From a virus, in the IMG/VR virus record IMGVR_UViG_3300009425_004205, positions 1 to 64,000 of that record: DNA of 64,000 bases, one strand, 5' to 3'. Both the position numbers and the translations under genes were made by a program. A model generated the notes under the pieces. The model was not told where the DNA came from and ran no database searches. It saw only the letters and a list, made by a program, of their open reading frames with translations. This document shows positions 33,665 to 35,964 of the stretch, piece after piece. The stretch's first letter is position 1; each line of letters begins with the position of its first letter.

Positions 33665-34352
33665 TTCAACCGGCGGCAGTGGATCGAGCTTTGTAGCTGA
33701 TCAGTTTTCTATGAACCATTGGAAAGTTTGTCTTCGGCCAGATGGGGGACAACAGAAAGCAACACACTCAGAAAAACAAATTTATGATGAAAGAACTATC
33801 CCGCACTTTGAATCTCTTTTAGGGAAAAAGCCAAATCAGGAGCAGATGTTTGAAGAAGCTTATGTGAAATTAAGAAAAGCGAAAAATGACAATTTAATGT
33901 TATTATGTATGACTTGGGGAGGCTTGGGATATTTGAACAATATTGAGGAAAAGACAATATTTCTAGTAAGGGATCCTGTATTCGCTTTTAACTCATACTC
34001 CGGCGGTGGATGGAGAAAGGAGGGAGGACAGCGCCGAATAAAGTATGTCGGAGCATCTGGCGCCAATGATAAGAAGTGGATAGACTTATGGTTGGGGAAG
34101 TTTGCGCATTGGAAGCAGGGTGCGCTACATGCTATTAATTCAGCAAAAGAAGGCAATGGCCACCTTGTCAGATATCACAGCTTTGCAAAAGACTGGGAAA
34201 AGATAGAAGGCGTCCCACCGATACATAAAAATTTTAAAAGCAAAGATGAAATACTGAAACTTCAGGGCTTTCTGTCCGCTGAAACTATAAAGTACATTAG
34301 AGAAGAAACAAACGATGTCTGGAAGGAAATCAAGTCGTTTAGTCATGAGTGA
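33651..34352 (+). CDS. Sulfotransferase-like / P-loop protein
   Basis: N-terminal SSTGGSGSSF loop and LVRDP..AFNSY, resembling PAPS-binding motifs. Confidence 0.5.
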   Translation: MIVISSTGGSGSSFVADQFSMNHWKVCLRPDGGQQKATHSEKQIYDERTIPHFESLLGKKPNQEQMFEEAYVKLRKAKNDNLMLLCMTWGGLGYLNNIEEKTIFLVRDPVFAFNSYSGGGWRKEGGQRRIKYVGASGANDKKWIDLWLGKFAHWKQGALHAINSAKEGNGHLVRYHSFAKDWEKIEGVPPIHKNFKSKDEILKLQGFLSAETIKYIREETNDVWKEIKSFSHE

Positions 34353-35964
34353 TGAGTTTATAGGTAGGAAAAACAACACTCTAGGTGTTAATGATCTCAG
34401 AAAGTATTTAGCTAACAAAAAGGAGACTTCGAAACAGAAAAATCTCCTCATTAAGTTGGAAGAATATGTAGAGTATAAAGCTCCTAAGGAAAATGTCAAA
34501 GTTTTATTAATATCTCTTCCAATAACTATACCAAAATATATGCAGAAAAGATGTATACCTCCATTAGGAATATCATATATCGCTGCCTCCCTAGAAAAGA
34601 ATAAAATAGATGTTGATATCATCGATTGTTGTGTAGAAGGCTGGGATATAGAGAGATATAGTGGAAATATGGTTACATATGGCATACCACCATCACAACT
34701 TGGAGAAAGACTAAAAGAAGTAAATCCAGATATAGTAGGAATAAGTCTTTTGTTTTCAACAGATATGAAGAACTTATATGAGGTAAGTTCGGTAGTGAGA
34801 GAAAGCCTCCCGAACACAACAGTCCTTGTTGGGGGGTTACACCCAACAATATACCCAATTGAAATGTTCGAATTAGATTTAGAGCAAAATAAGAGGAGAA
34901 CTATAGATTTTGTGCTAAGGGGAGAAGGCGAGGAAAGGCTGGTTGAGTTTGTTGGGGATTTAGAGAATGGTGTTGTAAATATTAACGCTGACGGCTTAGT
35001 CGGATTTGTGGGTGATAAATTTATTTACAATGAACAGGTTGAAAACATAAAAGATTTAGATTCGATACCATTTCCTGCGTACCACCTGCTTCCGATGGAG
35101 AAGTATTTCAATATTAATGTTCCATTTTCGCCAGTACCACAGGGAGACAGGGTTTTACCAATGTTGACAACTAGAGGCTGTCCAGTTGGTTGTACCTTTT
35201 GCGCAAATACAAATACTTGGTGGAAACATAGAAAAAGATCTGTTGCGAATATAGCTGAAGAAGTTAAGTACCTTAAGGACAATTTCCAAATAGATGAGTT
35301 GCAGTTTGCTGATGATAATTTAACTTATGATATGAAACATGCAATTGAAAAGTTCAAAGCTATAAAGGAGTTTGATTTACTGTGGTGTACCCCAAACGGA
35401 ACAATGATTAATAAACTAACAGAAGAACTGATAACTATTATGGCAGAATCAGGGATGTATCAAATAACTTTATCAATGGATAGTGCCGTGGCAAGAACTT
35501 TGAAGGAGTTACATCACAAGCCGGTAAATTTGAACACCATACCTGGATTGATAAAAAGGTGTAAAGAGCTGGGTGTGTTTGCTCATGGTACATTAGTAGT
35601 AGGCATGCCTGGGGAAACGCTGGAAGAGATTTCTGAAGGATTCGAATATGTAAAGAATGATCTTGACTTTACAAGTGTTTCTGCTTTTATTGCTGCCGCC
35701 ATCCCCGGCTCTGAGCTTTATCATGATATGCTGGACTCTGGAAAAATATCGAAAGAAGACGCTCGCGAAATTGATACAACGAAATCTAAGATATCACTAT
35801 CTAATATAGAACCAAAGGCATTAGAGGACATGATAGAGACGTTCCAATCAGAATTTCTCGAGATAGTGAAATACAGAGATCCGGAAGAGTATCAAAGAAA
35901 ATACTCTAAACTAATAAAATCTGGCAGGTGGGATGAAGATCAATGCGGAGGAAAATTAACATGA
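34345..35964 (+). CDS. Cobalamin-dependent radical SAM methyltransferase, Fom3-like
   Basis: B12-binding N-domain (PPLGISYIAA, VGGLHP, GEGE) and RGCPVGCTFC; many blocks match Fom3 as recalled. Confidence 0.88.
   Translation: MSDEFIGRKNNTLGVNDLRKYLANKKETSKQKNLLIKLEEYVEYKAPKENVKVLLISLPITIPKYMQKRCIPPLGISYIAASLEKNKIDVDIIDCCVEGWDIERYSGNMVTYGIPPSQLGERLKEVNPDIVGISLLFSTDMKNLYEVSSVVRESLPNTTVLVGGLHPTIYPIEMFELDLEQNKRRTIDFVLRGEGEERLVEFVGDLENGVVNINADGLVGFVGDKFIYNEQVENIKDLDSIPFPAYHLLPMEKYFNINVPFSPVPQGDRVLPMLTTRGCPVGCTFCANTNTWWKHRKRSVANIAEEVKYLKDNFQIDELQFADDNLTYDMKHAIEKFKAIKEFDLLWCTPNGTMINKLTEELITIMAESGMYQITLSMDSAVARTLKELHHKPVNLNTIPGLIKRCKELGVFAHGTLVVGMPGETLEEISEGFEYVKNDLDFTSVSAFIAAAIPGSELYHDMLDSGKISKEDAREIDTTKSKISLSNIEPKALEDMIETFQSEFLEIVKYRDPEEYQRKYSKLIKSGRWDEDQCGGKLT

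What the first reader, a model, noticed from the sequence alone, without database searches (positions are those of the whole stretch)
34345..35964. Fom3-like B12 radical SAM methylase implies a C-methylated phosphonate product
Seen blocks: KVLL...RC.PPLG..YIAA.LEK, PD.VGIS..FS, IPFPA.H..MEKYF.I...SP...G.RV, RSV...EV..L.D...IDE...DDN.T.DM.HA.E.F.A.KE, W.TP.GT, MAESG.YQ.T, LKEL..KP.NL. From memory these track Streptomyces Fom3 closely, beyond generic class B motifs. Established: Fom3 methylates C2 of CMP-activated 2-hydroxyethylphosphonate, which the Fom1 cytidylyltransferase domain makes. Here an aminotransferase occupies the place of the FomC reductase, and LicD is present instead of FomD/Fom4. 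Inference: fosfomycin-like early chemistry rerouted to an unusual head group (2-aminopropyl- or 2-hydroxypropyl-phosphonate) for transfer onto a glycan.
Basis: partly seen in the sequence, partly recalled or inferred. Interest (0 to 1): 0.88.

Follow-up and report, generated by a model that had tools for sequence, protein, structure and literature searches.

The report
Phage B12 radical-SAM phosphonate methylase
A marine phage carries a vitamin-B12-dependent radical enzyme, a cousin of the fosfomycin enzyme Fom3, wired into its own phosphonate pathway; it most likely adds a methyl group to an activated aminoethylphosphonate that is then attached to a sugar polymer.

Summary
ORF 34345-35964 (alternative start 34315) encodes an intact cobalamin-binding radical SAM enzyme whose blocks align with authentic Fom3 (UniProt Q56184): 37% identity over 463 residues.

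It is not a Fom3 orthologue. It is 46% identical to Shewanella Sden_1168. It scores 570.5 bits on NCBIfam NF038361 (cut-off 575), against 300.6 for Fom3. It sits inside the Sden_1168 clade (support 100); Fom3 forms a separate clade. The physiological substrate of that family is unknown.

Context supports a phosphonate role:
- In 12 related marine metagenome loci the gene lies beside or inside a PepM-Ppd-AEP transaminase-cytidylyltransferase cassette, in three gene orders.
- 24 of 28 bacterial genomes carrying a family member encode PepM.
- Cytidylyltransferase-radical SAM fusions exist.
- One nested phage lineage keeps the enzyme plus LicD but has lost the cassette.

The most likely function is C-methylation of CMP-2-aminoethylphosphonate before LicD transfers it to a glycan. 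The chemistry and the carbon attacked are inferred, not shown. 2-Hydroxypropylphosphonate is unlikely, because no reductase is encoded.

Earlier notes of this scan reached a similar reading for bacterial members of the family and had noted the cassette-less phage island. The finding is a new variant of a known kind.

The parts
34345..35964 (+). Cobalamin-binding radical SAM enzyme of the Sden_1168 family (alternative start at 34315, 549 aa)
   Evidence: PF02310 plus PF04055. NF038361 570.5 bits, cut-off 575. 46% identity to Sden_1168 and 37% to Fom3. Placed inside the Sden_1168 clade with support 100.
30577..31443 (+). PEP mutase with a variant catalytic loop, IEDNPSPKRCSF instead of EDKx5NS
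   Evidence: PF13714 E 6.6e-39. TIGR02320 219 bits, below its cut-off. Best solved relative is PEP phosphomutase 5UNC at 199 bits. The loop is invariant in all related phage PepMs.
31433..31831 (+). Phosphonopyruvate decarboxylase, N-terminal (alpha-like) piece of a split enzyme
   Evidence: TIGR03297 positions 1-123, E 1.9e-28; PF02776.
31803..32297 (+). Phosphonopyruvate decarboxylase, C-terminal (beta-like) piece
   Evidence: TIGR03297 positions 170-286, E 2.5e-26; PF02775.
32251..33318 (+). 2-aminoethylphosphonate (AEP) transaminase
   Evidence: TIGR03301 PhnW-AepZ E 1.3e-43, below its cut-off.
33245..33664 (+). Cytidylyltransferase, presumed PntC-like activator that makes the CMP-phosphonate
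   Evidence: PF01467 E 8.5e-21. The same family is fused to PepM or to this radical SAM family elsewhere (PMC8942020).
33651..34352 (+). 233-aa protein with a P-loop kinase / sulfotransferase-like fold, function open
   Evidence: No Pfam or NCBIfam hit. ESM Atlas neighbours are sulfotransferase-like. AlphaFold2 model pLDDT 75; best PDB match is the curacin sulfotransferase domain at only E 2.7e-3, TM 0.44. Present only in gene orders A and N.
35943..36644 (+). LicD-family transferase, presumed to move the phosphonyl head group from CMP to a glycan
   Evidence: PF04991 E 4.4e-10. It follows the radical SAM gene in most related phage loci.
36622..37497 (+). FkbM-family SAM methyltransferase, probably for glycan O-methylation
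   Evidence: PF05050 E 4.4e-17; TIGR01444. It is kept in the cassette-less phages, so it is not tied to the phosphonate.
37422..38369 (+). NAD-dependent sugar-nucleotide epimerase/dehydratase
   Evidence: PF01370 E 2.8e-37.
25559..30580 (+). Four glycosyltransferase genes (GT4, GT4, GT2, GT1-like) that open the tightly coupled island
   Evidence: PF00534, PF20706 and PF00535 hits; overlapping gene ends.

Best explanation
The gene encodes a methylcobalamin-dependent radical SAM methyltransferase of the Sden_1168 family, the closest curated relative of Fom3. It works inside a phage-encoded phosphonate pathway. Inferred steps: PepM and the split Ppd make phosphonoacetaldehyde; the transaminase makes 2-aminoethylphosphonate (AEP); the PF01467 cytidylyltransferase makes CMP-AEP. 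By analogy with Fom3 acting on CMP-2-hydroxyethylphosphonate, the radical SAM enzyme then removes a hydrogen atom from a carbon of the CMP-bound phosphonate with a 5'-deoxyadenosyl radical and delivers a methyl group from methylcobalamin. The likely product is CMP-2-aminopropylphosphonate; the carbon attacked is not established. LicD then transfers the methylated head group onto a glycan built by the neighbouring glycosyltransferases. Shown here: domain make-up, family placement, and conserved linkage to phosphonate and cytidylyltransferase genes. Inferred: substrate, order of steps, carbon attacked, and the glycan target.
For: Domains and the intact cluster motif are confirmed. Family placement rests on NF038361 at 570.5 bits, 46% identity to Sden_1168, and a clade with support 100. 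Fom3's own best curated family is also NF038361 (300.6 bits, next HpnJ at 137), so the two families are nearest curated neighbours. Twelve related metagenome loci plus the window have the gene beside or inside the PepM-PpdA-PpdB-AEPT-CyT cassette, in three gene orders: after CyT, between AEPT and CyT, and between Ppd and AEPT. In 18 of 28 bacterial loci PepM and Ppd lie within 10 kb; 6 of the other 10 genomes have a strong PepM elsewhere. The background rate is about 4% of complete bacterial genomes (PMC8942020). N-terminal cytidylyltransferase fusions occur: P0047 with PF01467 and P0079 with PF12804. Bacterial loci lacking nearby PepM still have NTP_transf_3, CTP_transf_like or CDP-alcohol transferase genes next to the radical SAM gene. 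Fom3 is recorded as cytidylyl-2-hydroxyethylphosphonate methyltransferase (PMC9204698).
Against: No member of the family has a known physiological substrate. The only assay cited in the review is P-methylation of a phosphinate analogue by SD_1168 (PMC9204698). One phage lineage (L029-L032, L042, L084) keeps unk233-rSAM-LicD with no PepM, Ppd, AEPT or cytidylyltransferase. One of these is a 189.6-kb record rated 100% complete. Conversely, L033-L036 have the cassette without the radical SAM gene. The phage PepM lacks two residues of the canonical EDKx5NS loop. I found no natural C-methylated AEP in the paper library.
Confidence: 0.6

Rival explanations
1. The enzyme acts on a non-phosphonate substrate: a sugar or sugar nucleotide of the glycan, or a host CDP-alcohol head group used by LicD. 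On this reading its position next to the phosphonate cassette reflects module shuffling in a hypervariable glycan island.
For: The cassette-less phages keep unk233-rSAM-LicD together with sulfation and glycan genes, and have no cytidylyltransferase anywhere in a complete genome. Other class B radical SAM enzymes methylate sugars (GenK, MoeK5; PMC9204698). Phages L033-L036 run the cassette without it.
Against: The cassette-less lineage is a single tight clade nested among cassette-linked branches, which suggests one secondary loss. In orders B and C the gene is interleaved inside the cassette. The family as a whole tracks PepM and cytidylyltransferases in bacteria. The host could supply CMP-AEP.
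Confidence: 0.2
2. It is a P-methyltransferase, as the NCBIfam name says, and makes a methylphosphinate (a C-P-C compound) as PhpK does.
For: NF038361 is named 'P-methyltransferase' after the SD_1168 assay (PMC9204698).
Against: P-methylation needs an H-phosphinate substrate, and none of the window's island genes annotated by Pfam or NCBIfam resembles the enzymes that make one. The PhpK family model scores only 88 bits. The review calls the physiological reaction of SD_1168 unknown, 'C- or P-methylation'.
Confidence: 0.08
3. It is a true Fom3 equivalent that makes CMP-2-hydroxypropylphosphonate from CMP-2-hydroxyethylphosphonate.
For: 37% identity to Fom3 with shared blocks. A cytidylyltransferase is present.
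Against: It lies outside the Fom3 clade. No phosphonoacetaldehyde reductase, HppE or FomD is found among the island genes; a transaminase is present instead.
Confidence: 0.05
4. It performs radical chemistry other than methyl transfer, such as a rearrangement or cyclisation, as OxsB and BchE do.
For: Class B enzymes are chemically diverse. BchE and HpnJ models give secondary hits of 123-142 bits.
Against: The nearest characterised relatives, Fom3 and SD_1168, are both methyltransferases (PMC9204698).
Confidence: 0.07

Closest known systems
Sden_1168 (SD_1168) of Shewanella denitrificans OS217; NCBIfam NF038361
   Same: It shares the domain order and aligns over the full length: 46% identity over 512 residues, and 570.5 bits covering model positions 28-533 of 560. 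It falls in the same clade with support 100. The Shewanella-type cluster also has PepM fused to a nucleotidyltransferase, Ppd and a class V aminotransferase.
   Different: The score is 4.5 bits under the curated cut-off. The phage protein lies in a separate subclade with Melainabacteria, Omnitrophota and Planctomycetes relatives. The Shewanella cluster looks like a small-molecule pathway (amino acid kinase, GNAT, beta-lactamase-fold, sulfatase), whereas the phage cluster is a glycan island with LicD. The physiological reaction of the type member is unknown (PMC9204698).
Fom3, cytidylyl-2-hydroxyethylphosphonate methyltransferase of Streptomyces wedmorensis (UniProt Q56184)
   Same: It is a class B radical SAM enzyme that works in a PepM/Ppd pathway on a CMP-activated phosphonate. 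Identity is 37% over 463 residues. Eleven positions are conserved only in the two phosphonate-linked clades.
   Different: It forms a separate, well-supported clade and scores only 300 bits on NF038361. The fosfomycin pathway uses a reductase and an epoxidase and yields a free antibiotic. Here a transaminase and LicD point to an amino head group attached to a glycan.
Phosphonyl tailoring pathway: PepM-Ppd-AEP transaminase-PntC cytidylyltransferase plus LicD-type or CDP-alcohol-type transferase (as summarised in PMC8942020)
   Same: The order of chemistry is the same, up to CMP-AEP and its transfer to a surface polymer. Phages L033 and L034 carry this pathway without the radical SAM gene.
   Different: A B12 radical SAM step is added, the pathway is phage-encoded, Ppd is split into two genes, and PepM has a variant loop.
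PhpK/BcpD P-methyltransferase (TIGR04479)
   Same: It is a class B radical SAM enzyme of phosphonate/phosphinate metabolism.
   Different: The relationship is distant: 88 bits against a cut-off of 600. None of the annotated genes of the window's island resembles a phosphinate-forming enzyme.

Membership tests
Class B (cobalamin-binding) radical SAM enzymes | N-terminal B12-binding domain followed by a radical SAM core | tested here: met
   PF02310 at residues 80-212 and PF04055 at residues 284-441.
Class B (cobalamin-binding) radical SAM enzymes | CxxxCxxC motif for the [4Fe-4S] cluster | tested here: met
   C289, C293 and C296 are invariant in alignment A1.
Sden_1168 family (NCBIfam NF038361) | Whole-protein score at or above the curated cut-off of 575 bits | tested here: inconclusive
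   570.5 bits, 4.5 under the cut-off, with a full-length match. Close phage and bacterial relatives score 565-603.
Sden_1168 family (NCBIfam NF038361) | Falls in the same clade as the type member, apart from other class B families | tested here: met
   A 27-row clade including Sden_1168 (P0115) has SH-aLRT support 100.
Sden_1168 family (NCBIfam NF038361) | Methylcobalamin-dependent methyl transfer to a phosphonate or phosphinate substrate | not testable with these tools
   This needs anaerobic reconstitution and an assay.
Fom3 (cytidylyl-2-hydroxyethylphosphonate methyltransferase) | Groups with authentic Fom3 in a class B tree | tested here: not met
   The Fom3 clade (P0396, P0395 and relatives) is separate and lies on the far side of a split with support 98. 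Identity is 37%, against 46% to Sden_1168.
Fom3 (cytidylyl-2-hydroxyethylphosphonate methyltransferase) | Pathway supplies 2-hydroxyethylphosphonate (a phosphonoacetaldehyde reductase) and uses 2-hydroxypropylphosphonate (HppE epoxidase, FomD) | tested here: not met
   No dehydrogenase or cupin was found among the island genes 25559-38369. An AEP transaminase and LicD are present instead.
Fom3 (cytidylyl-2-hydroxyethylphosphonate methyltransferase) | A partner cytidylyltransferase makes the CMP-phosphonate substrate | tested here: met
   A PF01467 gene lies at 33245-33664. Fusions of cytidylyltransferase with this radical SAM family exist.
Phosphonyl tailoring (PepM-Ppd-AEPT-PntC-transferase) pathway | PEP mutase with the EDKx5NS loop | tested here: inconclusive
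   It is in the PepM clade by score (5UNC 199 bits, methylisocitrate lyase 93 bits), but the loop reads EDNPSPKRCS. That loop is conserved in all the phage copies.
Phosphonyl tailoring (PepM-Ppd-AEPT-PntC-transferase) pathway | Ppd, AEP transaminase, cytidylyltransferase and a LicD- or CDP-alcohol-type transferase in one cluster | tested here: met
   All are present and co-oriented with overlapping gene ends.

The most novel reading that the evidence does not exclude
The Sden_1168 family is the amine-series counterpart of Fom3: a CMP-2-aminoethylphosphonate C-methyltransferase. On this reading a widespread group of marine phages makes a C-methylated aminophosphonate that I did not find described (for example 2-aminopropylphosphonate) and grafts it onto glycans of the infected cell or the virion. 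They would start from a PEP mutase whose variant loop fails the motif filter used in one published survey.
Probability: 0.4. Interest if true: 0.8.

Novelty: new variant of a known kind. Interest (0 to 1): 0.7.

Why it matters
The Sden_1168 family is a curated family of B12 radical SAM enzymes whose real substrate is unknown. The phage and bacterial contexts gathered here give it a concrete candidate to test: a CMP-activated aminoethylphosphonate. That would extend the Fom1/Fom3 logic from one antibiotic pathway to cell-surface phosphonates.

A 2022 survey (PMC8942020) found no PEP mutase in RefSeq viruses or in 364 huge phages. These marine phages carry a whole pathway, and their PepM would fail that survey's EDKx5NS motif filter.

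If the product is real, it is a new natural phosphonate. It would also be a phage contribution to the marine phosphonate pool and to surface-glycan variation.

Tried and rejected
I therefore could not read the contexts of the metagenomic proteins, including the two cytidylyltransferase fusions and the nearest uncharacterised ~490-aa relatives.
- The genome-contig scan used patterns specific to the Sden_1168 family and so did not return Fom3. A first cluster look-up gave no names. I reached Fom3 through P0144 and its cluster.
- The original SD_1168 paper (PMC4362910) is not held. What I say about its assay comes from the review PMC9204698.
- Literature searches found no natural C-methylated AEP, no study of PntC with radical SAM enzymes, and no phage-encoded pepM.
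- Sequencing runs: no RNA holder was listed, and only small shares of words turned up in three seawater or marine metagenome runs. I did not lay the reads.
- The 233-aa neighbour shows no similarity to the P-loop kinase-like gene upstream of the Shewanella Sden_1168-type radical SAM gene (locus L026). Its fold search gave only weak matches to sulfotransferases and P-loop kinases.
- My naive ORF clustering merged families and over-called ORFs in high-GC Streptomyces loci. I used only tblastn and Pfam results from those loci.
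Full report
**What is there.** The window is part of a tailed phage. It has a PhoH-like gene and a PD-(D/E)XK nuclease upstream and a baseplate wedge protein downstream. Its record is a 78.5-kb virus contig rated 43% complete.

From 25559 to 38369, fourteen co-oriented genes with overlapping ends form one island:
- four glycosyltransferases;
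- PEP mutase;
- a phosphonopyruvate decarboxylase split into two genes;
- an AEP-type transaminase;
- a PF01467 cytidylyltransferase;
- a 233-aa protein without family hits;
- the radical SAM gene;
- LicD;
- an FkbM methyltransferase;
- an epimerase.

The ORF of the finding is intact. It carries a B12-binding domain, a radical SAM core and the CxxxCxxC motif. Both starts (34315 and 34345) are open; public gene calls use 34345.

**Is it Fom3-like?** I obtained authentic Fom3 by reference as P0396, UniProt Q56184, named 'cytidylyl-2-hydroxyethylphosphonate methyltransferase'. The three pairwise comparisons are:

| Pair | Identity | Aligned | Bits |
|---|---|---|---|
| phage protein vs Fom3 | 37% | 463 | 256 |
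| phage protein vs Sden_1168 (P0115) | 46% | 512 | 457 |
| Sden_1168 vs Fom3 | 34% | 489 | 265 |

On NCBIfam the phage protein's best model is NF038361, 'Sden_1168 family B12-binding radical SAM P-methyltransferase', at 570.5 bits. That is a full-length match, 4.5 bits under the cut-off. HpnJ follows at 142 bits and PhpK at 88. Fom3 also has NF038361 as its best model, but at only 300.6 bits.

I built a 76-row maximum-likelihood tree (IQ-TREE, LG+G4, SH-aLRT support). It puts the phage protein in a 27-row clade with Sden_1168 (support 100). Within that clade it sits in a subclade with proteins of Melainabacteria-like, Omnitrophota and Planctomycetes genomes (support 96). Authentic Fom3 lies in its own clade (support 100), on the other side of a split with support 98, and uncharacterised enzymes of about 490 aa lie nearer to each clade.

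Of 92 positions conserved in both clades, 62 are generic to 120 neighbouring class B enzymes. Eleven are specific: R79, S272, P273, G277, V280, T299, Q383, H424, M431, S454 and F510.

So the protein is a cousin of Fom3, not an orthologue. [quoted passage not shown]

**Is it tied to phosphonates?** Three lines of comparison say yes.

1. Bacterial genomes.
   - In 28 bacterial loci from species-representative genomes, 18 have PepM and Ppd within 10 kb. In Streptomyces these often form a PepM-Ppd-aminotransferase-rSAM row.
   - Six of the other ten genomes have a strong PepM match elsewhere, at 282-401 bits on TIGR02320. That makes 24 of 28, against about 4% of complete bacterial genomes (PMC8942020).
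   - Where PepM is not nearby, the gene next to the radical SAM gene is still a nucleotidyltransferase (L005, L006, L007, L011) or a CDP-alcohol transferase (L011).
   - The Shewanella-type cluster has a PepM-nucleotidyltransferase fusion, Ppd, a class V aminotransferase and an amino acid kinase.
   - An Omnitrophota cluster has two paralogues of the enzyme, a CDP-alcohol transferase, a PepM-nucleotidyltransferase fusion, Ppd, a PhyH dioxygenase and the aminotransferase.
2. Fusions. Two family members carry an N-terminal cytidylyltransferase: P0047 with PF01467 and P0079 with PF12804. Their NF038361 match starts at residue 141 and 266 respectively. This is the architecture expected if the enzyme takes the cytidylyltransferase's product, as Fom3 does.
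3. The phage clade itself. Scans of IMG/VR and of metagenome contigs returned 4 and 63 loci. Among loci at 60% identity or more, twelve plus the window carry phosphonate genes next to the radical SAM gene, in three orders:
   - A: PepM-PpdA-PpdB-AEPT-CyT-unk233-rSAM-LicD (window, L038-L041, L043, L061);
   - B: AEPT-rSAM-CyT-LicD (L047, L049, L050);
   - C: PpdB-rSAM-AEPT-CyT-LicD (L046, L069, L090).

   Keeping tight linkage through such rearrangements argues for a shared function.

**The complication.** The island is modular.
- Six loci (L029-L032, L042, L084) share the window's synteny and keep unk233-rSAM-LicD. In place of the phosphonate cassette they carry two other glycosyltransferases, a sulfotransferase, a second FkbM, an APS kinase, a HAD hydrolase and a UDP-glucose dehydrogenase.
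- One such record is 189.6 kb and rated 100% complete. It has no PepM, PF01467 or PF12804 match anywhere.
- Conversely, L033-L036 have the five-gene cassette without the radical SAM gene. In L033 and L034 a more distant LicD is present.
- A tree of the phage-clade enzymes shows the cassette-less loci as one tight clade (support 100). It is nested among cassette-linked branches, with cassette-linked outgroups.

The simplest reading is a single loss of the cassette, with the host supplying the donor in that lineage. This is inference, and it leaves room for the rival that the enzyme works on something else.

**Mechanism proposed.** PepM, Ppd, the transaminase and the cytidylyltransferase make CMP-AEP. 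The radical SAM enzyme C-methylates it by the Fom3 mechanism: hydrogen abstraction by a 5'-deoxyadenosyl radical, then methyl transfer from methylcobalamin. LicD moves the head group to a glycan.

- P-methylation is unlikely because nothing in the island would make an H-phosphinate.
- 2-Hydroxypropylphosphonate is unlikely because there is no reductase.
- Which carbon is methylated, and whether methylation precedes or follows cytidylylation, cannot be told from sequence.

**Caveats.**
- The phage PepM has IEDNPSPKRCSF where PepMs have EDKx5NS (Lys to Asn, Asn to Cys). The variant is invariant in all eleven related phage-type copies found in other loci. A more distant copy (L066) has a related form. 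The bacterial PepMs linked to this family are canonical. By score it is still a PepM: 199 bits to 5UNC against 93 to methylisocitrate lyase.
- The 233-aa neighbour has only a weak P-loop kinase / sulfotransferase-like fold, and orders B and C lack it.
- No isolate phage in the INPHARED collection has a close relative of either the radical SAM enzyme or the PepM.

**Earlier notes of this scan.** They had reached a similar reading for bacterial members of NF038361 and had listed the cassette-less phage island. I treated them as leads. The results above were obtained independently here.

**Verdict.** This is a new, phage-borne variant of a known kind of pathway, and it gives an orphan enzyme family a testable substrate.

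Noticed in passing
window 30577-31443; also L033-L036, L039, L041, L043, L047, L061, L096: All related phage PEP mutases share the loop IEDNPSPKRCSFYG, which has a KRC as in methylisocitrate lyases, instead of EDKxFPKxNSF. Surveys that filter on EDKx5NS would discard them.
   Followed up: partly
window 31433-31831 and 31803-32297: The phosphonopyruvate decarboxylase is split into two short genes (132 and 164 aa), like the alpha and beta subunits of sulfopyruvate decarboxylase. The split is conserved in all related phage loci.
   Followed up: partly
L029-L032, L042, L084 (for example L030 7525-17489): Sister phages replace the phosphonate cassette with a sulfation set (APS kinase, PF00685 sulfotransferase), a second FkbM, a HAD hydrolase and a UDP-glucose dehydrogenase. 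They keep unk233-rSAM-LicD.
   Followed up: yes
L002 9977-19618 (Omnitrophota MAG); L004 similar: Two paralogues of the radical SAM enzyme (542 and 566 aa) sit in one phosphonate cluster with a CDP-alcohol phosphatidyltransferase and a PhyH dioxygenase. This suggests a doubly modified phosphonolipid head group.
   Followed up: partly
L026 1504-16821 (uncultured Shewanella): The Sden_1168-type cluster carries an amino acid kinase-family gene and a P-loop kinase-like gene just upstream of the radical SAM gene. It also has PNPOx, a beta-lactamase-fold protein, a GNAT and a sulfatase. This looks like a small-molecule pathway with fosfomycin-like self-resistance kinases.
   Followed up: no
L020 12049-12867 (SAR116 single-cell genome): A family member sits next to a ComA-type phosphosulfolactate synthase rather than phosphonate genes. 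The genome has a strong PepM on another contig.
   Followed up: no
window 9038-10042: This ORF matches phrog_1211, a PurZ-type adenylosuccinate synthetase homologue (E 6e-72). It hints at 2-aminoadenine DNA in this phage.
   Followed up: no
window 23683-24351: A 222-aa protein has a weak match to the ATLF zinc-metallopeptidase-like domain (PF07737, E 2.4e-6). It is conserved in position in all related phages.
   Followed up: no
window 44209-54594 and 59137-63999: Two very long ORFs, one of 3461 aa and one of more than 1621 aa, flank the baseplate genes. I did not examine them.
   Followed up: no
MW073017.1 109695-110402 (Vibrio phage Va2): An isolate phage has a gene annotated as phosphoenolpyruvate mutase. 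It is only 25% identical to the window's PepM.
   Followed up: no
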